From assembly GCA_036648855.1 (NCBI GenBank), contig JAVWCU010000001.1, positions 3,121 through 67,120 of the forward strand: a stretch of DNA of 64,000 nucleotides, given 5' to 3'. This document shows positions 2,831-29,804 of this stretch, in pieces. Each line of letters starts with the position of its first letter. Positions within the stretch are counted from its first letter, which is position 1. A program made the translations under genes and the position numbers. The DNA is from Bacilli bacterium (lineage in GTDB: Bacteria; Bacillota_I; Bacilli_A; RF39; UBA660). Under the pieces are notes generated by a model. The model did not search any database and had not been told where the DNA came from. It saw only the letters and a list, made by a program, of their open reading frames with translations.

Positions 2831-3415
2831 TTATCTTTTATTCATAAATGGCTTTAATTCTTTGTTTATCAAAGGGATTCCATTATGATTTTTAATAGCT
2901 TCTTCTTCTGCTTGCAGTAGCGTGTCTTTATTATTAGAATTGATTTCTTTTAGCATTGCAAACTTTGTATCAGGATGTTCTAATATTTCTATTGGAATAT
3001 ATTTTTGAGTTAAATGCCTTTCTAGCCTTGATAAAAAATTAATTGAAGTAGATCCTATATATGATTTGTTTAATGTATTATTATAAACATAATAGACTCC
3101 TTTTTTATCCTTTAAGTCGCCAACTATATTGGCTACAAGTTGCTTATGATGTGTTATAACTGTTTTTCGTAATGTAGCTATGTTATTAAATAATAATATT
3201 TCATATTCAGGGAATTCTAAAGTAAGAATATCCTCATGATAAGAGTCATTATGTATTTCTACGTCGCCTGTTTTAGATATAAGACAACTAGCTTTTGTTG
3301 AGTATATTGCCTCAAAAACCTCAAAGATGTTTCCAAATTTAAAGTAAAAGATTGTTTTGTTTTCATGGCATATTATTGATATGCTGCTTGTTTTGCTGTC
3401 CAATTTTATTTTCAA
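2831..3415 (-). CDS. GIY-YIG family endonuclease-like protein (194 aa), TTG start
   Basis: GVYYVYNNTLNKSYIGSTSINFLSRLERH gives GIY-(x10)-YIG followed by conserved R and H, located in the C-terminal half. AAGGAGA 6 nt upstream of TTG at 3415. TAA stop. Confidence 0.65.
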   Translation of the reverse strand: MKIKLDSKTSSISIICHENKTIFYFKFGNIFEVFEAIYSTKASCLISKTGDVEIHNDSYHEDILTLEFPEYEILLFNNIATLRKTVITHHKQLVANIVGDLKDKKGVYYVYNNTLNKSYIGSTSINFLSRLERHLTQKYIPIEILEHPDTKFAMLKEINSNNKDTLLQAEEEAIKNHNGIPLINKELKPFMNKR

Positions 3416-3498
3416 TGTTGTTCTCCTTTGTAGTTATATCTATATATGATAACTGTTTATAATTATACTTCGTATAATAAATGTCCGCATACGCTACC

Positions 3499-15101: not shown

Positions 15102-15198
15102 TATACTATCCTCCTTTCTTTTTTATCTGTTTCGTCTTAATTTTCAAAGACTCATCAGGGAGCATCTACACTCCGACAGATAAGAATCAATAGCCAAA

Positions 15199-15741
15199 TT
15201 ATCTTCGACTATTAATTCTTTTAGTAGTTTTATATTTTTCAAAATATATATATTCACTTATAGAATAAGCTTCTATTTCATGAAGTCTTTTTTTATACTC
15301 TTTCTCATAATCAAATTCATATCCTGGTATACGATATTGAGCGGCATGTATTAATTCATGTATCAACGTTAATTCTCTTTCTTCATCATTACAATACTCA
15401 GCTATTTCTATAGAACGATACTCGGCAATTCCTCCTAGCCTTTCATCTTCTCCTATGTCATCTTTAGAGTACATTAAATCTCTTTCATCAAATACTTTAA
15501 ATAAATCAACTTTAGGTAATTCAAAGCTAGATTCTAATAAATTGACAGTATCATAAGTATTTTCTTCTTCGTTGAAGTAAGTAACTTTTACATTGTTTGC
15601 TACCATTATAGATAAGATTTTTATCATTTTGTCTAATACAACATCACATGGTTGTGAAATGTAGTATTTTGTTAATGCATTCACTTCAGTACATAATTCA
15701 ACATTTGTTCTAAAATCTTGTTGCATAATTCTTCTTCTCAT
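15199..15741 (-). CDS. HExxH zinc-metallopeptidase-like protein (180 aa), ImmA/IrrE/SprT-like
   Basis: motif LTLIHELIHAAQY. AAGGAGAA 6 nt upstream of ATG 15741. TAA stop. Confidence 0.6.
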   Translation of the reverse strand: MRRRIMQQDFRTNVELCTEVNALTKYYISQPCDVVLDKMIKILSIMVANNVKVTYFNEEENTYDTVNLLESSFELPKVDLFKVFDERDLMYSKDDIGEDERLGGIAEYRSIEIAEYCNDEERELTLIHELIHAAQYRIPGYEFDYEKEYKKRLHEIEAYSISEYIYFEKYKTTKRINSRR

Positions 15742-22873: not shown

Positions 22874-23563
22874 ATGGAAAAGATTAATTTTTTAGATTAT
22901 ATAGAAAGACATTATGGGTTTCAATTAACAAGTTCTCAGCTTAAATATTATTTTACAACAAATAAGTATGTTGTTATGACTAGTCCAAGAAAGGGCGGTA
23001 AAACTTTTATTGCTTCTTTAGACGCTTTACAAACTTGTACTACTCCTAATAAAAATGTATGTATTGTAATAGGAAGTGAAATAGAAAGAAGATTTATACA
23101 AAATTACATAATAGATATAGTAGAATCATTAAATGGTTATATAACTATCGACTTTATAAATGATAATCAAATTAAATTCACGAATAATTCTAATATTTAT
23201 TTTAAATCAAATGAATTTGATTCTAGAGGAACTAAATTTAATAAAGCTATAATATCGGAACCAGATTCTATAAATGATATGGAAGATTTAATATTAAGAT
23301 TAGAACTTTGCATGGCAATATGCCCAGATGCACAAATAAAACTAGTAGGAACACATATGAGAAATAAAACAAATTTAATATCTTATATGCTTAATCCTTA
23401 TTATGAAAAAATACAAATAACATATAACCAGTTACATTATAGACATAGTGAAGAAGATTTAAGAAAAATAAGAGAAATAATGGATACAGTGTCTTATAAT
23501 TTAGAGATTCTTAATAATATTAGTCCAAATGTAATTGGAGCTATGTTTCAAAGGAGTGAATAA
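22874..23563 (+). CDS. terminase large-subunit ATPase-domain paralog (229 aa; no nuclease domain)
   Basis: Walker A VVMTSPRKGGKTF. AIISEPD sits where Walker B (hhhhDE) belongs and VGT where the coupling motif belongs. Same block order as the real TerL exon 1/2 product. AAGGGGGA RBS. No TGA. Confidence 0.55.
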   Translation: MEKINFLDYIERHYGFQLTSSQLKYYFTTNKYVVMTSPRKGGKTFIASLDALQTCTTPNKNVCIVIGSEIERRFIQNYIIDIVESLNGYITIDFINDNQIKFTNNSNIYFKSNEFDSRGTKFNKAIISEPDSINDMEDLILRLELCMAICPDAQIKLVGTHMRNKTNLISYMLNPYYEKIQITYNQLHYRHSEEDLRKIREIMDTVSYNLEILNNISPNVIGAMFQRSE

Positions 23564-23567
23564 TCAA

Positions 23568-26500
23568 ATGGCATTAGCCAAATCACAAGCAGCTAAATTA
23601 AATGAAATAATGAGTGATCCTATTAAATGAGCACAAACTTTCCTTAGAACATTTAATTCAAAAACAAAACAAATAGAACCATGAACAGCTAGATGATATC
23701 AAGTAGAAATGTTAAGAGATAACCATACTAGAAAAGTATATAGATGTGGAAGGCGTATTGGAAAGACAGAGACAATGGTAGTTGAAATGTTATATCTTGC
23801 ATTTACTAAAAAGAACTTTAGAGTTTTAATGGCAGCACCCTACGAGAATCAAATTCGTAATATGTTTACACGTCTAAATGAATTAATAGCAGAATCTCCG
23901 TTAATAAAACAAGCAGTTGTTTCTACAACAAAAAACCCAGCTAAAATAGAATTCGCAAACGGATCTATGATACTGGGATTTACTACTGGGGACGATGCAG
24001 CTTCTGTCAGAGGACAGAGAGCAGATTTCAAAGATATATCAATATATATATTATTTGTTTAAAAGCTAAACCTCTTAGTAATAATTAGATGAGGTGATTA
24101 CAATGAATGACAAGAAATACATTAATAGAGAATGACTAAAAAAACAATTCGAAGAGTACAAAACTCCTTCATTAGTATCCACAATGACAGGCTATCCTAG
24201 AACTTGTATAACAAGATATGCTATTAAATATAATATCTATGAAAAGAAATATACAAGAGATAAGACTAATTATGTCAATGAAGATTATTTTAACAAAATA
24301 AATACTTCTGATAAAGCATATTTCCTTGGTTTTATAATGGCAGATGGAAATATGTATCAAAGAAGTAATGGTAAATATCAATTCTCTATTAAAATTAAAA
24401 GTTCTGATAAAGATATATTACTTAAATTTGCACAAGCAATTGACTTTAATATAGAAAAAATTACAGAAAGAAATGAAACTAGAAATGAAACAATTACAAG
24501 ATGTGCAGAAATCAAAATATACAATCAAACATTTTGTGAGAATTTAATAAAGCAAGGAGTTATTCCTAGAAAAACTGGAAAGGAATATATACCAAATATA
24601 AGTAGCAAATACTTAAAAGACTTTATTAGAGGCTATATAGATGGAGATGGATGAATAGGTAAAGATAACTTCCAGTTAGGATATTGTTCTTCTTCATATG
24701 AAATGATGCAACAAATTACTTCTTATATAAAAGAAGCTATTAATATAGACATGAAGATAAAAGAACAAAATAATATATATGTAGCAAAGATATACGCTAA
24801 AAAGAAAGTTTATCATTTATTAAAACATTTTTACTATGAAGGATGCACAGCTTTAGATAGAAAAAATAATTTAGCTAAACAAAAACAAATAGATTTATAT
24901 AACGATTTAATCGGTCTGCTATAATCTAGGTTAATTGACGGGAACAGGCTTAGAGCTTCATACACCAACTTATTATAGCGATACAATAAGGGCGTTGCTA
25001 ATCACAACGATATGGTAACAGAGATGAAGATTGCTTAATCCGCAGCCAAGCTCTTAATAGCTTTATTAAGATGAAGGTTCAACGACTAGTCCATTGGACG
25101 TAGGATTCAAGTGAATTCGAAACACCTAGCTAGAAAGATATAGTCTCGACATTTGGGGAAAACCCAAAGAGGATATATGGAAACGATATATCCGTAAGAT
25201 AACGTGAATATTTATAGATGAGGTTGACTTTATGAGCGAATACTGTTTTGAAGTTGTAGCAGCAGTAGCCATAGAAAGATCTGATATAGGAATAACAGTT
25301 TCTTCAACGCCGCTTGGTAAACGTAGTAAATTTTATCAAATGTGTACAGATACAAAAATGAATTATTCTCAACATTACCATCCATCAACTCATAATCCAA
25401 ACTGAGATTCTCAAATGGAAGCAGAGCTTAGAGCACAGTTAACAACAGAAGGTTACATACATGAAGTTTTAGCAGAGTTTGGTACACAAGAAAAAGGGGT
25501 GTTTGATAAAGACAAAATAGATGCTTCAATGAAAATATTGAATTATGCTTATAATGAATTAGATTTCTTCCAGCAAAAAGTTATAGCTGAAGAAGGAAGA
25601 GAAATGCCAGAAATGTTAATGTATAATCATTCTAATAGACCGCCAACAAATGTGTTTAGAACTATGGGAGTAGATTGAGATAAAAAAGATCATTGTCACA
25701 AACAACTTGCATAACTAATTGATTTTATCATATATTACATTTGAGGTGATTATATGATAACTAAAGAAGAATTAGAAAAATATATAAATAAAAAGATTTC
25801 TTTTAAGCAAGTATCAGTAGAATTAAATATTAGTTATAATACGGTTTTAAGATATGCAAAAAAATATAATTTAAAATCGGGAATAGGAACAAAAGGAGCA
25901 CAAAAACACACTATTAATGAAAACTATTTTGAAATGATAGATACAGAAGAAAAAGCTTATTGGTTAGGATTTATAGCTGCTGATGGAAATATCCATAGTT
26001 CTGTAAAAAACAAACCTATTAATAGATTACAAATAAATCTAAAAGGAAATGACATTGGTCATTTAAAAGCTTTTAATTCCACTTTGTTATCTTCTTATAA
26101 TGTAGAAGAAAAACAAGTAAACAAATATAATGTGTGTCAACTAAAAATAAATTCTACAAAGCTTTGTTCAGACTTGCAGAAATTAGGAATAACTCCGAGA
26201 AAGTCTTTAAATGTAGAAATGCCAATTTTGCCTAAAGAACTAATAAAACATTTCATAAGAGGGTATTTTGATGGGGATGGCAATATTAAAAATTTCACAG
26301 ATAAAAACGGAAGACATAGATACAATTTTAATATTGTTGGCGGCATAGATATGTTAACAGCTATTAAAAACAATATTCCTTGTGAAACATTGATATATAA
26401 TTTAAAAAGACAAGCCCCAATATACTCTTTAGAAACAACTAAAAAAGATAATCTTATTACAATTTATAATTATTTATATAAAAATGCTAATATATATCTT

Positions 26501-28751
26501 AATAGAAAAAAAGATATATTCGACAATTTAATGTCTCGCTTTACAGAAATGTAAAGGCAATAACCTTTTGAATTCAGGGAAACTCCAGAACGGACAACCT
26601 CTGAGCCAAGCCTAGAAATAGGAAGGTGCAACGACTATCGAAAACACGAATATCCGAGAAACACGGTTTTTGAAAGTGAGTAGAGTAGGGTCAAGCGACT
26701 CGAAGCGGAAGGGCTCTTAACAGATAAAGCTGAAGAGTATGATATAGTCTGAGCTATATGGGAACATATAGAAGGATGGAAATAGCGATTCCATTCGTAA
26801 CATAACTGAAATACGGAGCTTCGTCTTCTATATTAATACTTGACTATGATATGCAACTTGGCAAGTTTAAAGTATTTAAAAGAATAGAAGTTCCTAGATC
26901 AGAATACTCTTATGATGCAGCTGTTAATCTTATAATAGAATTAAATGAGATATATAATCCTTCATTTATATATTGTGATGCTGGTAGTGGTGAAATACAA
27001 ATTTATTAATTACATATAATAAGATTATTAAACTAATCGGAGGTATATGTATGTTTCCAATATGGATAAACAAAGCAATTGAATTAAGAAAAAACGGACT
27101 ATCTTACGCTAAGATAGGAAAGCTATTAAACACAGATAGAAAGAAGGTTAGTTTTTATCTACAAGAAAAAGGATATGGTCCTTCTAAAGCATATAAAAAA
27201 GCAAAGGAATTTAATCAACCAAATAAAAAAGCTATTAATGAAAATGTATTTGAAAAAATAGATACAGAAGAAAAAGCATATTGGTTGGGATTCATGTATG
27301 CTGATGGATGTGTTAATAGAACTTCTAACAGAATAGAATTATCTTTAAAAGAAGAAGATTATAGTCATATTGTTAAATTTAAAAACTTTTTAGAAAGTGA
27401 ACATATAATAGGAAAGAAATCTAAAACAATTAAAGATAAAACATATATAAGTTATCGACTTGGAATAACAAATGAAAAATTAAAAAATGATTTAATAAAG
27501 CACGGATGCGTGCCTAATAAAACTAAAGTTCTTCAATTTCCTAAATTAAATAAAAAACTTGTTAAACATTTTATAAGAGGATATTTAGATGGAGATGGAT
27601 GCATTACTCATCAAGCTACTTCTAAAATGAGTTTAGAAATATTAGGTACAGAAGAATTTTTAAGAGCTATATTAGATTATTATAATTTTCCAAATGACAA
27701 ATACATTTATACTTTTAAGCATTCAGATATAAAAAGGTTAATCTTATCTGGTCCAAAAGCTTTTGAAGTAATAGATGACTTATATAAAAAATCTAATATT
27801 TATTTAGAACGTAAATTCAATTTGTATAATAAATTCGCCCCTTTATTTAGAGATAAATAAAGAGTAGCGGGCAAAATCGGTAGAGGTGTTAGCGTGCTAG
27901 TACCGAGGTAACATATATGATAATCATATTGTACCGTAACGCATAGTGACTGAAAAGATATAATGTCGCCAAGAGTGTCCGCCACAGAGTCTTACCAACT
28001 CTCTTAGCCTAAGTAATAACTTAGGGTGAAAATGTATGCTAGACTGAACATGAAATAACATGTTGATGAAAATGAGTGAAAGCTCCAGAGCCTAAGATAA
28101 AAAGCTTAGGGTTAATAACATTCGGAATATCAAATAGAAAGATTACATATCTACGGAGAGGAGAATCCTCGTTCTGGATTAAAAGCCAAAGTTAAAAGAT
28201 GACAGTTTTCTAACAAGTTAGATATCATGGACCCAATAACAAAAGAAATAGAAAAGAAGCCACTTAAACCATTTATGGTCAATCAGCTTCAAATAGTCTT
28301 TGAAAGAGATAAATTAATATTATCTCCATACGATGCAATTCTTACTAAACAATTAGTAGATTATGAAGTTGAAAAAATAACAGAAGCGGGTATTCCCAAA
28401 TACACTTCTGAAAATGAACATTTTGTTGACGCATTAGGTTTAGCATATCTTGCAATGGTTCTTGAGTTTAAAGACTTAACAGGAGTTATAGAAGATATAC
28501 AAACTACTAGCGATTTCTTTATCTCTCATAAACAAGTAGGTGGAAATGCTATGAAAATTCAAGCAGAAACAAGAGCTAGAGCTGATAATAGAATAACAAA
28601 CTTTTATGAAAATACAGACTTTAGAGATTTAGAAGGCGATAGACAAAAGTGGGTAAAAGTAGATATGGAGTATCGTTCACCAAAAGTTCAATCAAGTAGA
28701 GGTGCAAGAGGTTGAGGTTCTAGGTCCGCAGGTAGTTTTAGCAGATTTTAA
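23568..28751 (+). CDS. terL: terminase large subunit, split into four exons (approximately 23568-24026, 25205-25675, 26830-26995 and 28215-28751) by three group I introns
   Basis: Exon 1: adenine-binding W-YQ plus Walker A RCGRRIGKTE. Exon 2: WIFIDE Walker B, SST coupling motif, NPNWDSQMEAELRAQL. Exon 3: IYCDAGSGE nuclease motif. Exon 4: LQIVFERDKLIL...NEHFVDALGLAYLAM nuclease C-terminus. The order matches T4 gp17. Each exon-frame ORF ends at a TAA inside the following intron. Six in-frame TGA across the exons. AAGGAGTG RBS before ATG 23568. Confidence 0.75.
24027..25204 (+). mobile_element. group I intron 1 in terL (boundaries approximate) carrying a LAGLIDADG endonuclease ORF
   Basis: splitting after GAT (..RGQRAD) and resuming at TGAATATTT restores RGQRADWIFIDE, which aligns with T4 RGNSFAMIYIDE. 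The 3' 300 nt are GC-richer and contain P7-like GACTA ... ATAGTC. The intron would end in G. Confidence 0.6.
24103..24924 (+). CDS. LAGLIDADG homing endonuclease (273 aa) with N-terminal HTH-like domain; two in-frame TGA (24133, 24652)
   Basis: motifs AYFLGFIMADGNM and FIRGYIDGDGW. Own RBS GAGGTGATTACAATG. TAA stop 24922-24924. Confidence 0.75.
25676..26829 (+). mobile_element. group I intron 2 in terL (boundaries approximate, +/-30 nt)
   Basis: non-coding 26555-26829 is GC-richer with CAACGACTA ... ATGATATAGTC, a P7-like pair, like intron 1. Confidence 0.55.
25754..26554 (+). CDS. LAGLIDADG homing endonuclease (266 aa), paralog of 24103..24924
   Basis: AYWLGFIAADGNI and FIRGYFDGDGNI. RBS GAGGTGATTATATG. 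No TGA. Confidence 0.75.
   Translation: MITKEELEKYINKKISFKQVSVELNISYNTVLRYAKKYNLKSGIGTKGAQKHTINENYFEMIDTEEKAYWLGFIAADGNIHSSVKNKPINRLQINLKGNDIGHLKAFNSTLLSSYNVEEKQVNKYNVCQLKINSTKLCSDLQKLGITPRKSLNVEMPILPKELIKHFIRGYFDGDGNIKNFTDKNGRHRYNFNIVGGIDMLTAIKNNIPCETLIYNLKRQAPIYSLETTKKDNLITIYNYLYKNANIYLNRKKDIFDNLMSRFTEM
26996..28214 (+). mobile_element. group I intron 3 in terL (boundaries approximate)
   Basis: HE ORF followed by about 350 nt of GC-richer structured RNA (27861-28214). The exon 4 reading frame opens at about 28215. Confidence 0.5.
27051..27860 (+). CDS. LAGLIDADG homing endonuclease (269 aa), third paralog
   Basis: AYWLGFMYADGCV and FIRGYLDGDGCI. RBS GGAGGTATATGTATG. No TGA. Confidence 0.75.
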   Translation: MFPIWINKAIELRKNGLSYAKIGKLLNTDRKKVSFYLQEKGYGPSKAYKKAKEFNQPNKKAINENVFEKIDTEEKAYWLGFMYADGCVNRTSNRIELSLKEEDYSHIVKFKNFLESEHIIGKKSKTIKDKTYISYRLGITNEKLKNDLIKHGCVPNKTKVLQFPKLNKKLVKHFIRGYLDGDGCITHQATSKMSLEILGTEEFLRAILDYYNFPNDKYIYTFKHSDIKRLILSGPKAFEVIDDLYKKSNIYLERKFNLYNKFAPLFRDK

Positions 28752-28762
28752 CAGTAATATAA

Positions 28763-28797
28763 TAGCGATGGTTAATAAACCATCGCTAATTTTATAT
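28763..28797 (+). terminator. rho-independent terminator after terL
   Basis: TAGCGATGG-TTAATAAA-CCATCGCTA followed by ATTTTATATATT. Confidence 0.6.
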
Positions 28798-28823
28798 ATT
28801 AAATAATGAAAGGAATGATATAA

Positions 28824-29804
28824 ATGGATGATTTTAAAAAAGTAGGTTATAGACCCAATCTTCAATATACAGATGAATATGAAGCTGACATTGATTTTAA
28901 ATTAAATAATGAAATTGAAGACAATGATGATGATAACTCTTTAATTGATGATTTGCTTGAACAAGGAGATGCTTTAGACAACATGATTGACAAGTTGCCA
29001 GGTTTTATTGGAGATTTCATTAAAGACCCTTTAGATCCTATTATCAGTTTTGTAAAAGATGAATTATATGGCAAAGATTTAGAAAGAGTTCCAGTTGAAT
29101 TAGATTGGACATATGATCCTAATATTCCTGGAGATTCTCCAGATGTAGATACCTCAGAGAAACCTGGACCAGATGACCAAGAAGAATTAGATCCATGGGG
29201 ACCTGAAGATGATATAATAATTAAAATAGAAAACCATACTAAAACAGAAGTTATAGAAAAAGAATATGTAAAAAACGTATATGATATTTTCAATGATTAC
29301 TATACTAATCTTCATAATATAGTCTCTAATTTTTGGTCAGGTTTTTTATATTCAATAATGAATAAAGACACAAGTGAAATTAAAACTATCATGGATAATA
29401 TAATATTAAGTAGCAGTGATATAAAAGACAATAAGAAACATTTATTAGATTCTTCTGTAAGATCAGAAATTAATAGAGATATGAAATTTAGATATTATGC
29501 TAACAATTTTGATGCAGAAGGTTCTATTAAACACTTAAAGAATTTTAAAGCTATGTATGAACTTAGAATAAGATACTCTAAGATAGATAAAAATGAAAAT
29601 CCAGTATCTAGAGCAGATCAAATGTCTAACAACATATTAAAAGGAATGAGTATGTCATATGATTCTAAATATGATAAAGCATTTGAAAATTTACATAGAT
29701 ATTTAAAAAGTTCTAATACAGTATTAAATGATTCATTACAAGCTGCTATGCAATCAATGAAATCAAAACAAACTTTAATAGATACGAAAGGTGTGAAAAA
29801 TTAA
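28824..29804 (+). CDS. acidic hypothetical protein (326 aa)
   Basis: AAAGGAATG RBS. TAA stop overlaps the ATG of groES. No TGA. Confidence 0.55.
   Translation: MDDFKKVGYRPNLQYTDEYEADIDFKLNNEIEDNDDDNSLIDDLLEQGDALDNMIDKLPGFIGDFIKDPLDPIISFVKDELYGKDLERVPVELDWTYDPNIPGDSPDVDTSEKPGPDDQEELDPWGPEDDIIIKIENHTKTEVIEKEYVKNVYDIFNDYYTNLHNIVSNFWSGFLYSIMNKDTSEIKTIMDNIILSSSDIKDNKKHLLDSSVRSEINRDMKFRYYANNFDAEGSIKHLKNFKAMYELRIRYSKIDKNENPVSRADQMSNNILKGMSMSYDSKYDKAFENLHRYLKSSNTVLNDSLQAAMQSMKSKQTLIDTKGVKN

What the first reader, a model, noticed from the sequence alone, without database searches (positions are those of the whole stretch)
23568..28751. Large terminase gene interrupted by three group I introns, each encoding a free-standing LAGLIDADG homing endonuclease
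TerL hallmarks appear in T4 gp17 order across four separate reading-frame segments: Walker A, Walker B/coupling motif, and two nuclease motif blocks.

The segments are separated by three insertions of 1.15-1.2 kb. Each insertion contains an independently initiated LAGLIDADG ORF with its own GAGGTG RBS, followed by about 300 nt of GC-richer non-coding RNA. Introns 1 and 2 carry P7-like GACTA ... ATAGTC pairs.

Exon frames terminate at TAA inside each insertion, so these are introns, not inteins.

For intron 1, removing 24027-25204 restores the sequence RGQRAD-WIFIDE, with U as the last exon nucleotide and G as the last intron nucleotide. This aligns residue for residue with T4 RGNSFAMIYIDE.

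Three introns in a single packaging gene, plus a fourth (GIY-YIG) endonuclease elsewhere in the window, indicate unusually heavy homing-endonuclease traffic.
Basis: partly seen in the sequence, partly recalled or inferred. Interest (0 to 1): 0.75.

Follow-up and report, generated by a model that had tools for sequence, protein, structure and literature searches.

The report
Phage terminase gene with three introns
The DNA-packaging enzyme gene of an uncultivated phage that reads TGA as tryptophan is split by three self-splicing group I introns, each carrying its own homing-endonuclease gene; this is real and well supported but belongs to an already described kind.

Summary
Read with genetic code 4 (TGA = Trp), window 23568-28751 encodes one 581-aa large terminase (TerL) in four exons: 23568-24026, 25205-25681, 26809-26991 and 28125-28751. 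The three insertions are 1178, 1127 and 1133 nt. The spliced protein is colinear, with no indels at the junctions, with many uninterrupted 580-590-aa homologs (66-83% identical in the ten-sequence alignment). Syntenic relatives carry only intron 1 or only intron 3, with breakpoints at the predicted splice sites. Each insertion follows an exon U and ends in G. Each has an internal guide sequence just upstream of P2/P3 and a group I core. Rfam RF00028 scores intron 2 at 73.9 bits and intron 1 at 46.7 bits (cut-off 50). Intron 3 gets no hit, but its family shows a covarying P3/P7 pseudoknot core (97% of cells paired, 30 of 48 pairs compensatory). Each intron encodes a double-motif LAGLIDADG endonuclease inside the P1 loop. 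Corrections: exon 4 starts at 28125, not about 28215; the endonucleases are intron-encoded, not free-standing; intron 3's RBS is GGAGGT. TerL genes split by two or three group I introns are published (Bastillevirinae, 2025), so this is a new member of a known kind. Splicing itself is inferred.

The parts
23568..24026 (+). TerL exon 1 (153 aa; Walker A GRRIGKT; ends ...RGQRAD, last nucleotide U)
   Evidence: Code-4 translation; alignment A1 to uninterrupted homologs; Pfam Terminase_6N
24027..25204 (+). Group I intron 1 (1178 nt, IA-type; ends in G)
   Evidence: RF00028 46.7 bits, E = 5e-11, model positions 34-253 when searched alone (below the gathering score of 50). P/Q/R/S boxes at 24933, 25037, 25077 and 25135. 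Absent from L062/L063 with breakpoints 24025/25205.
24103..24924 (+). HEG1: 273-aa double-motif LAGLIDADG endonuclease in the P1 loop (RBS GAGGTG 24091-96; contains 2 in-frame TGA = Trp)
   Evidence: Pfam LAGLIDADG_3 E = 5e-12; 274-aa ortholog in L061; codon counts
24911..24920 (+). Intron 1 P10/internal guide sequence UCG|GUCUGCU. It pairs with the exon 1 end AGCAGAU (U·G at the splice site) and overlaps the last HEG1 codons.
   Evidence: Only candidate of at least 5 bp in the intron. Compensatory A-U to G-C change in L061 (AGCGGAU / GUUCGCU).
25205..25681 (+). TerL exon 2 (159 aa; starts WIFIDE = Walker B; ends ...GVDWD, last nucleotide U)
25682..26808 (+). Group I intron 2 (1127 nt, IA-type; ends in G)
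   Evidence: RF00028 73.9 bits (gathering score 50), E = 3.5e-19. Core about 74% identical to the Twort three-intron gene AF132670. Absent from L061, L062 and L063 with breakpoints 25684/26809.
25754..26554 (+). HEG2: 266-aa LAGLIDADG endonuclease (RBS GAGGTG 25743-48)
   Evidence: Pfam LAGLIDADG_3 and LAGLIDADG_1; 33-37% identical to HEG1 and HEG3
26533..26538 (+). Intron 2 internal guide sequence GUCUCG. It pairs with the exon 2 end UGAGAU, lies inside the last HEG2 codons, and sits about 30 nt upstream of P3.
   Evidence: Chosen by position; a 7-bp wobble-rich alternative lies deep in the ORF at 25844. No comparative test.
26809..26991 (+). TerL exon 3 (61 aa; KYGASSS...IYCDAGSG, last nucleotide U)
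26992..28124 (+). Group I intron 3 (1133 nt; IA-like with a P7.1 hairpin and extended P9; ends in G). Not recognised by RF00028.
   Evidence: No Rfam hit. Family alignment A3: 97.3% of cells paired, 30 of 48 pairs compensatory, slid controls 31-46%. Helix coordinates. Absent from L061, present in L062/L063.
27051..27860 (+). HEG3: 269-aa LAGLIDADG endonuclease (RBS GGAGGT 27039-44). Its stop codon lies inside P2.
   Evidence: Pfam LAGLIDADG_3 E = 7e-9. 269-aa ortholog in L062/L063. Identical protein on SRR25820365 contigs.
27833..27861 (+). Intron 3 P10/P1 guide AUUC·GCC (P1 = exon GGU + intron GAA with UUCGCC; P10 = AUUC with exon 4 GAAU), followed by P2 UUUAUUUA-GAGA-UAAAUAAA
   Evidence: the same pairings are kept in L062
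28125..28751 (+). TerL exon 4 (208 aa + TAA; starts EYQIERLHIYG)
   Evidence: Alignment A1; breakpoint 28125 in L061

Best explanation
Window 23568-28751 is a single functional large-terminase (TerL) gene of a TGA = Trp recoded tailed phage. It is interrupted by three mobile group I (IA-type) introns.

Proposed mechanism:
1. The gene is transcribed as one pre-mRNA.
2. In each intron, a guide sequence just upstream of P2/P3 pairs with the last nucleotides of the upstream exon. This forms P1 with a U·G wobble at the splice site.
3. The P3-P9 ribozyme in the last 260-300 nt catalyses guanosine-initiated splicing. The intron's terminal G and a short P10 pairing position the downstream exon.
4. The four exons are ligated in frame to give a 581-aa TerL.
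5. Each intron carries, inside its roughly 0.9-kb P1 loop, an independently translated double-motif LAGLIDADG endonuclease.
6. In a mixed infection, that endonuclease would cut the intron-less allele at the exon-exon junction. Repair would then copy the intron in (homing).

The three sites sit in the most conserved TerL motifs: just before Walker B, in the first nuclease acidic motif, and next to the CD/E motif.

Shown here: the exon structure, empty alleles, ribozyme cores, guide pairings and endonuclease families. Inferred: self-splicing, endonuclease activity and homing.
For: Exon structure
- Code-4 translation gives clean exons.
- The spliced protein is colinear, with no junction indels, with uninterrupted 580-590-aa homologs (66-83% identical in alignment A1).
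- It aligns with T4-like gp17 through Walker B.
- Pfam Terminase_6N spans junction 1.

Empty alleles
- Syntenic relatives carry only intron 1 (L061) or only intron 3 (L062/L063).
- BLAST breakpoints fall at 24025/25205, 25684/26809 and 28125.

Ribozyme cores
- RF00028 scores intron 2 at 73.9 bits and intron 1 at 46.7 bits with E = 5e-11.
- For the intron 3 family, the P3/P7 pseudoknot, P4, P6, P7.1, P8 and P9 are 97.3% paired with 30 of 48 compensatory pairs. No shuffle out of 500 reaches this, and slid controls give 31-46%.

Splice-site features
- All three have U before the 5' splice site and G as the last intron base.
- Guide sequences lie at the expected position. Intron 1 shows a compensatory exon/IGS change in L061, and intron 3's P1/P10 are conserved in L062.

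Endonucleases
- All three HEGs pass the Pfam LAGLIDADG cut-offs and are paralogs.

Assembly and precedent
- The same arrangement occurs on independent assemblies.
- Precedent for TerL with two or three self-splicing group I introns: PMC11878797.
Against: - No RNA data exist, so splicing is not observed.
- Intron 1 scores below Rfam's curated gathering threshold. Intron 3 is not detected by RF00028 at all, and none of the three was found in the whole-window gathering scan.
- The intron 2 guide sequence is only 6 bp. It was chosen by position among four candidates and has no comparative support.
- The intron 3 covariation test rests on 10 related sequences and on a structure I derived by eye from some of the same sequences.
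- The guide sequences lie about 0.9 kb from the 5' splice sites, so P1 must form across a long loop that is being translated.
Confidence: 0.9

Rival explanations
1. Genes in pieces: the endonuclease cassettes split TerL into four separately translated polypeptides that reassemble into an active enzyme, with no RNA splicing. This is the situation in the Aeromonas phage Aeh1 split ribonucleotide reductase (from my own knowledge of that case).
For: Each insertion carries its own RBS and ORF, and the exon frames stop shortly after each junction. Gene callers in public data do call the fragments as separate genes.
Against: Exons 2, 3 and 4 have no start codon or RBS at their 5' ends. Exon 2 begins with TGA-Trp inside the Walker B strand, and exon 3 is only 61 aa. 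Each insertion ends with a conserved 260-300-nt ribozyme core that a simple HEG cassette would not need. The U/G boundaries and guide-sequence pairings would also be unexplained.
Confidence: 0.03
2. Decaying gene: TerL is a pseudogene broken by insertions whose ribozymes no longer splice, and packaging is done by another protein.
For: Intron 1 scores below the Rfam threshold and intron 3 has no Rfam hit. A 229-aa ORF just upstream has a Walker A motif and a weak Terminase_6N match (E = 0.002, below cut-off).
Against: All four exons keep an open frame. They are up to 83% identical in protein to intact homologs with every catalytic motif preserved. Orthologous introns persist at the same sites in relatives at about 78-82% DNA identity with intact HEGs. 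The ribozyme helices are intact in the window copy. The upstream ORF is too short to be a TerL and has no nuclease domain.
Confidence: 0.04
3. The insertions are inteins removed at the protein level.
For: Relatives of this TerL do carry LAGLIDADG-containing inteins, in Walker A after residue 67 (P0028, P0064, P0065, P0108).
Against: The exon frame meets TAA 18-36 nt into each insertion. The HEG ORFs are in other frames with their own RBS, and 260-300 nt of each insertion is structured non-coding RNA.
Confidence: 0
4. Assembly chimera: the interruptions are artefacts of metagenome assembly.
For: The window is evidently from an uncultivated phage. No isolate is closer than 45% in TerL.
Against: The identical HEG3 with the same neighbours (HEG2 upstream, exon 4 downstream) occurs on two contigs of an independent run, SRR25820365. 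Orthologous single-intron alleles occur in three other assemblies.
Confidence: 0.01

Closest known systems
Group I introns in TerL and polymerase genes of Bastillevirinae Bacillus phages, e.g. SIOphi TerL (PMC11878797)
   Same: The TerL gene is split by two or three group I introns. Many carry a homing endonuclease in a long loop that separates partial Rfam hits. SIOphi TerL self-splices in vitro. Intron 1's core here has 70-74% BLAST matches to SIOphi and related Bacillus phages.
   Different: Most Bastillevirinae intron ORFs are HNH or VSR-type, and LAGLIDADG is rare there (one case, in a polymerase gene). Here all three are paralogous LAGLIDADG enzymes. The TerL itself is unrelated at close range: the nearest isolate is Moorella phage MTATph1 at 45%. 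This phage uses TGA = Trp.
Staphylococcus phage Twort orf142, one gene with three self-splicing group I introns (GenBank AF132670; Landthaler and Shub 1999, recalled from my own knowledge)
   Same: Three group I introns in one late structural gene. Intron 2's core here is about 74% identical over about 210 nt to AF132670.
   Different: The host gene differs (the region is annotated as tail tube protein in MT151386, rather than TerL). The ORF content of the Twort introns was not checked here.
gyrA-interrupting RNAs of jumbo phages AR9/PBS1, BpSp and phiR1-37, and the split TerL of Clostridium phage vB_CpeS-1181
   Same: The last ~100 nt of intron 3 (P9 region) is 79-82% identical to these. They share the P3-P9 architecture and sit directly upstream of the downstream exon. 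AR9 gyrA is annotated as a 3-piece join.
   Different: Several of these copies have no ORF or a different one. Their P3-P5 region is of a different sub-type (P-box-like AAGCUGGGAGGG). I did not find a paper describing them as group I introns.
T4 td, nrdB and nrdD (sunY) introns, subgroup IA2 (recalled from my own knowledge)
   Same: Phage group I introns with classical P/Q/R/S boxes, extra helices between P7 and P3', an independently expressed HEG in a peripheral loop, and an in-frame stop soon after the 5' splice site.
   Different: The T4 HEGs are GIY-YIG or HNH and sit in P6 or P9 loops. Here they are LAGLIDADG in the P1 loop, with their 3' ends overlapping the guide sequence and P2.
TGA-recoded 'Agate'-type gut phages (Borges et al., bioRxiv 10.1101/2021.08.26.457843)
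   Same: Low GC, TGA = Trp concentrated in structural and late genes, and standard-code relatives at more than 80% ANI. That paper notes occasional terminase fragmentation by mobile introns and a recoded intron endonuclease. Here the late block has 28 TGA to 49 TGG and the opposite-strand block 1 to 15. Relatives L062/L063 use only TGG in TerL.
   Different: Membership of that clade was not tested. No suppressor tRNA lies in this 64-kb window.

Membership tests
Group I intron (Rfam RF00028 Intron_gpI) | Match to the family covariance model at or above the curated gathering score (50 bits) | tested here: inconclusive
   Intron 2: 73.9 bits, met. Intron 1: 46.7 bits, E = 5e-11, just below. Intron 3: no hit at E <= 1. 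The whole-window gathering scan and the 5.6-kb E <= 10 scan found none of them, so the speed filters matter.
Group I intron | Conserved core: P3-P7 pseudoknot with P4-P6 and P8, plus J3/4, J6/7 and J8/7 (P/Q/R/S) elements | tested here: met
   Introns 1 and 2: the Rfam alignments cover P3-P9, and the P/Q/R/S boxes were located. Intron 3: explicit P3/P7 pseudoknot structure on alignment A3, 97.3% paired, 30 of 48 pairs with double changes, P3 100% paired with 5 of 6 covarying, P7 100% with an A-U/G-C swap.
Group I intron | 5' splice site after a U that forms a U·G wobble with an internal guide sequence (P1) | tested here: met
   All three exons end in U. Intron 1: GUCUGCU/AGCAGAU, 7 bp, with a compensatory change in L061. 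Intron 2: GUCUCG/UGAGAU, 6 bp, by position only. Intron 3: UUCGCC/GGU|GAA, 6 bp, conserved in L062.
Group I intron | Terminal G (omega-G) at the 3' end of the intron, with P10 pairing to the 3' exon | tested here: met
   The last intron bases are G at 25204, 26808 and 28124. Nine of 10 family members have G in that column. P10 is 3 bp for intron 1, 4 bp for intron 3 and weak (1 bp) for intron 2.
Group I intron | Guanosine-dependent self-splicing that ligates the exons | not testable with these tools
   No RNA data. Indirect support: in-frame restoration and natural empty alleles at the same junctions.
LAGLIDADG homing endonuclease (Pfam PF14528/PF00961) | Two LAGLIDADG motifs in one chain, and a family HMM match above the cut-off | tested here: met
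   HEG1 46.3 bits, HEG2 28.4 bits (plus 27.1 for LAGLIDADG_1) and HEG3 36.2 bits, against a cut-off of 22.5. Motif pairs: LGFIMADGN/RGYIDGDGW, LGFIAADGN/RGYFDGDGN and LGFMYADGC/RGYLDGDGC.
LAGLIDADG homing endonuclease | Site-specific cleavage of the intron-less allele, and homing | not testable with these tools
   Only presence/absence polymorphism at the three sites among relatives supports mobility.
Phage large terminase, T4-type ATPase (Pfam PF03237 Terminase_6N) | Walker A and Walker B ATPase domain matching the family HMM, followed by an RNase-H-like nuclease domain | tested here: met
   Terminase_6N 42.6 bits (cut-off 22), residues 61-239. GRRIGKT and WIFIDE are present. The nuclease region aligns to S-PM2 gp17 (23% identity, E = 3e-18) but has no Pfam C-terminal domain hit. 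PDB sequence searches were uninformative.
Intein | Insertion translated in frame with the host protein, without stop codons | tested here: not met
   TAA lies in the exon frame 36, 33 and 18 nt into the insertions.

The most novel reading that the evidence does not exclude
Two readings go beyond 'another intron-bearing TerL'.

(1) Intron 3 may represent a widespread, conserved IA-like sub-family of phage group I introns that RF00028 does not detect. It has a P7.1 hairpin, an extended P9 with an invariant GAUGAAAAUGAGGGAAACCUCCAGAG element, and a GAAA loop facing an 11-nt-receptor-like motif in P5. I found it in 54 IMG/VR stretches, often several per contig, and in AR9/PBS1, phiR1-37 and others. 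Phage intron censuses that rely on Rfam would then be systematically incomplete.

(2) In this TGA-recoded phage, the TerL exons (8 of 9 Trp codons are TGA) and HEG1 (2 TGA) can only be translated after the code switch, whereas HEG2 and HEG3 have no TGA. The three endonucleases could therefore be expressed at different stages of infection.
Probability: 0.3. Interest if true: 0.45.

Novelty: new member of a known kind. Interest (0 to 1): 0.32.

Why it matters
**Annotation.** The TerL of this phage lineage is mis-called as four or five fragments by standard pipelines, because introns and TGA recoding combine. TerL is the usual marker for phage phylogeny and for judging genome completeness, so the correct exon map matters.

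**Biology.** This is a clean natural example of several homing elements targeting the catalytic motifs of one essential gene. There are three introns here and a Walker A intein in relatives, with presence/absence polymorphism among close relatives that could be used to study homing in recoded phages.

**Method.** It shows that Rfam-based screening can miss group I introns. All three were missed in the whole-window scan, and one is missed under any setting. None of this changes current understanding of introns or terminases.

Tried and rejected
- **Rfam at scale.** The whole-window gathering scan and the 5.6-kb E <= 10 scan found no group I intron. This was a filter effect, not absence, because narrow searches recovered introns 1 and 2.
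- **Rfam on intron 3 and relatives.** No group I hit on intron 3 or on four relatives. The weak RAGATH-20 hit (24.8 against 101.4 bits) and the caiA, P26 and CRISPR-DR hits were dismissed as chance.
- **Mixed alignment.** The 16-sequence alignment A2, mixing two 5' sub-types, put P3 out of register by 3 columns. I restricted to 10 window-type cores.
- **Faulty extraction.** My regex for J3/4 caught the P4 3' strand instead, so that extraction was discarded.
- **Guide sequences at the 5' ends.** Looking by eye in the first 60-75 nt of each intron gave only A-U (not G·U) candidates. These were rejected in favour of the candidates found upstream of P2/P3.
- **First P1 for intron 3.** My first proposal (GCCCCU with one mismatch) was replaced by the conserved 6-bp GGU|GAA / UUCGCC helix after comparison with L062.
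- **HEG codon bias.** The idea that HEG2 and HEG3 avoid TGA significantly was dropped. It rests on only 3 Trp codons against a background of about 36% TGA.
- **PDB mapping.** Sequence searches, both single sequence and profile, gave no usable TerL structure match for mapping motifs.
- **Host identification.** The genome-contig scan gave only one 45%-identical Bacillota MAG, so no host could be assigned.
- **Literature on the AR9 gyrA intron class.** The search was uninformative.
- **More introns in the window.** A motif scan found no further R-box plus S-box pairs elsewhere.
Full report
**1. What is at the coordinates**

Under the bacterial code the region looks like a string of short ORFs. 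The sequence shows in-frame TGA at conserved tryptophan positions in both the terminase pieces (IKW, PNW, VDW) and the first endonuclease (DGDGW). Re-translation with code 4 gives four clean terminase segments and three full-length endonuclease ORFs. The window as a whole gains about 45% more long-ORF coding under code 4. No ORF ends in TGA, and no tRNA is encoded in the window.

**2. Exon map**

A provisional spliced protein retrieved 715 homologs. Many are uninterrupted proteins of 580-590 aa covering 96-100% of the query. Identity in the ten-sequence alignment is 66-83%. That alignment fixes the junctions as RGQRAD|WIFIDE, GVDWD|KYGASSS and CDAGSG|EYQIERLH, with no indels.

| Feature | Coordinates | Length |
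|---|---|---|
| Exon 1 | 23568-24026 | 153 aa |
| Intron 1 | 24027-25204 | 1178 nt |
| Exon 2 | 25205-25681 | 159 aa |
| Intron 2 | 25682-26808 | 1127 nt |
| Exon 3 | 26809-26991 | 61 aa |
| Intron 3 | 26992-28124 | 1133 nt |
| Exon 4 | 28125-28751 | 208 aa + stop |

The product is 581 aa. Junctions 2 and 3 are ambiguous by up to 3 nt because of repeated bases. Only the stated choice puts U before the 5' splice site and G at the intron end, and this holds for all three.

The protein is a terminase. Pfam Terminase_6N, Terminase_3 and GpA_ATPase all match, with Terminase_6N spanning junction 1. The closest isolates are Moorella phage MTATph1 (45%) and Bacillus phage 0305phi8-36 (32%), with T4-like gp17 at about 23%. 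It also places junctions 2 and 3 at the two nuclease acidic motifs.

**3. Are the insertions group I introns?**

The whole-window Rfam scan at gathering threshold found none, and neither did a 5.6-kb scan at E <= 10. Searched alone, the tail of intron 2 scores 73.9 bits (gathering 50, E = 3.5e-19). The tail of intron 1 scores 46.7 bits (E = 5e-11, model positions 34-253). Both alignments cover P3 to P9 and show the classical P, Q, R and S boxes, with an insertion between P7 and P3' typical of subgroup IA.

Intron 3 gives no hit, and neither do four relatives. BLAST links its last ~100 nt at 79-82% to sequences that interrupt gyrA in AR9/PBS1, BpSp and phiR1-37, a major tail gene in a Staphylococcus phage, and the split TerL of a Clostridium phage. 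A more 5' stretch of the tail matches the sequence upstream of a recD-like gene in Bacillus phage PJN02 at 70%. In every case the RNA sits directly upstream of the downstream gene piece. An invariant P9-region motif occurs in 54 IMG/VR stretches.

Reading these side by side, I derived a group I structure:
- P3, then J3/4 (AAAA), P4, P5 and P6.
- An R-like AACGCAUAG carrying the 5' strand of P7.
- A P7.1 hairpin, then the 3' strand of P3, then P8.
- J8/7 (AAAAUGUA), then the 3' strand of P7.
- P9, P9.1 (GAAA loop) and P9.2, ending at the terminal G.

On a 10-sequence alignment this structure, including the P3/P7 pseudoknot, gives:
- 97.3% of cells paired, against 31-46% when partners are slid by 1-3 columns.
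- 30 of 48 pairs with changes on both sides.
- 0 of 500 shuffles reaching the observed values.

The structure was derived from some of the same sequences, which favours it. Even so, the number of compensatory pairs is far beyond both controls.

**4. Guide sequences and ORF placement**

A scan for G-initiated complements to each exon end found a single candidate in intron 1. GUCUGCU at 24914 forms 7 bp with AGCAGAU and lies 15 nt upstream of P3. In relative L061 the exon reads AGCGGAU and the guide reads GUUCGCU, a compensatory A-U to G-C change.

Intron 2 has GUCUCG at 26533, about 30 nt upstream of P3. It was chosen by position among four candidates and has no comparative support.

In intron 3, relatives show the order guide, GNRA-capped P2, then P3. 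The window has P2 UUUAUUUA-GAGA-UAAAUAAA, preceded by AUUCGCC. UUCGCC pairs with exon GGU plus intron GAA, giving 6 bp with the U·G at the splice site. AUUC pairs with the exon 4 start GAAU (P10). Both pairings are kept in L062.

All three endonuclease ORFs therefore lie in the P1 loop, and their last codons overlap the guide sequence and P2. Each has its own RBS: GAGGTG for introns 1 and 2, and GGAGGT for intron 3. All three pass the Pfam LAGLIDADG cut-offs, carry two motifs, and are 28-37% identical to one another.

**5. Mobility evidence**

Among homologs, nine clusters start at Met163 and run to the end. One stops at about residue 377. Three carry an intein after residue 67 and also stop at about 377.

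At the DNA level:
- L061, a 179-kb contig, has exon 1, a 274-aa LAGLIDADG ORF, and then the rest of TerL uninterrupted.
- L062 and L063 have residues 1-377 contiguous, then a 269-aa LAGLIDADG ORF, then exon 4.
- All are in the same gene neighbourhood.

BLAST against the window breaks at 24025/25205, 25684/26809 and 28125. Every site therefore has natural empty alleles whose boundaries match the predicted splice sites within the 1-3 nt sequence ambiguity. An identical HEG3 with the same neighbours occurs on contigs of an unrelated run, which rules out an assembly artefact.

**6. Comparison with what is known**

[quoted passage not shown] It also reports endonucleases in long loops that break Rfam hits apart, and in vitro self-splicing of SIOphi TerL. 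The Twort three-intron gene is a sequence relative of intron 2.

The recoding context is also described. Borges et al. report TGA = Trp phages with standard-code relatives above 80% ANI, recoding concentrated in late genes, terminases occasionally fragmented by mobile introns, and a recoded intron endonuclease.

The window fits that picture:
- The structural block has 28 TGA to 49 TGG Trp codons, and the opposite-strand block 1 to 15.
- TerL itself has 8 TGA to 1 TGG.
- Relatives L062/L063, 75-82% identical in DNA across this locus, have 0 TGA to 9 TGG in TerL.

**7. Verdict**

It is a new member of a known kind. The features that differ from the published cases are modest:
- All three endonucleases are paralogous LAGLIDADG enzymes placed in P1 loops.
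- One of the three ribozymes belongs to a widespread family that the Rfam model does not see.
- The host gene is heavily TGA-recoded.

Splicing, cleavage and homing remain inferences.

Noticed in passing
window 15124-15182, minus strand: Type III hammerhead ribozyme (RF00008, 53.7 bits against gathering 48.5, E = 4.5e-9), with an intact CUGAUGAG...GAAAC core. It lies in the 98-nt gap between a SprT-like metalloprotease-like gene (15199-15741, below the Pfam cut-off) and a 61-aa ORF that has an AAAGGAGG RBS. It would cleave the polycistronic transcript between the two genes.
   Followed up: partly
whole window; L061, L062, L063: The phage uses TGA = Trp. The usage is almost confined to the plus-strand structural block (28 TGA to 49 TGG) against the minus-strand block (1 to 15). 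No ORF ends in TGA, and no tRNA is in the window. Syntenic relatives L062/L063 (75-82% DNA identity across this locus) use only TGG in TerL, while L061 uses TGA. Close relatives therefore differ in genetic code.
   Followed up: partly
window 2831-3433, minus strand: GIY-YIG domain ORF (PF01541, 33.2 bits, residues 110-184 of a 200-aa stop-to-stop frame). There is no ATG upstream of the domain. It lies in a 1.4-kb stretch otherwise free of long ORFs. It could be a free-standing or decaying homing endonuclease. No group I motifs were seen nearby.
   Followed up: partly
window 22874-23563, plus strand: The 229-aa ORF immediately upstream of TerL, in the position where a small terminase is expected, has a Walker A-like SPRKGGKTF and a weak Terminase_6N match (E = 0.002, 18.2 bits, below the cut-off of 22). 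A syntenic ORF of 225-232 aa is present in relatives.
   Followed up: no
proteins P0028, P0064, P0065, P0108 (TerL relatives): These carry a ~415-aa LAGLIDADG intein (PF14890 plus PF14528) inserted after residue 67, inside the Walker A GKT. P0064, P0065 and P0108 are in addition truncated at the intron 3 site. This TerL lineage is therefore hit by both inteins and introns at four different catalytic motifs.
   Followed up: partly
L007-L060 (IMG/VR); L001, L003-L006: The intron 3-type ribozyme is not detected by RF00028 in any copy tested. It occurs in 54 viral-contig stretches, and several contigs carry more than one copy (for example L011, L017, L018, L059). Many copies have a GCUAAG...UAUGC 11-nt-receptor-like motif in P5 opposite the invariant GAAA loop of P9.1. 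The window copy lacks that receptor motif.
   Followed up: partly
window 28754-28826: Just after the TerL stop there is a hairpin AUAGCGAUGG-UUAAUAAA-CCAUCGCUA followed by a U-rich run. It produced weak Rfam hits (caiA at 27.9 bits, P26) and is most simply an intrinsic terminator or an RNA-stability hairpin between TerL and the next gene.
   Followed up: no
window 25205-28124 (technical): Intron 2 scores 73.9 bits when searched in a 321-nt slice but is absent from the whole-window gathering-threshold scan. Infernal's speed filters therefore discard a true above-threshold group I hit here, in an AT-rich context with an ORF in the P1 loop.
   Followed up: yes
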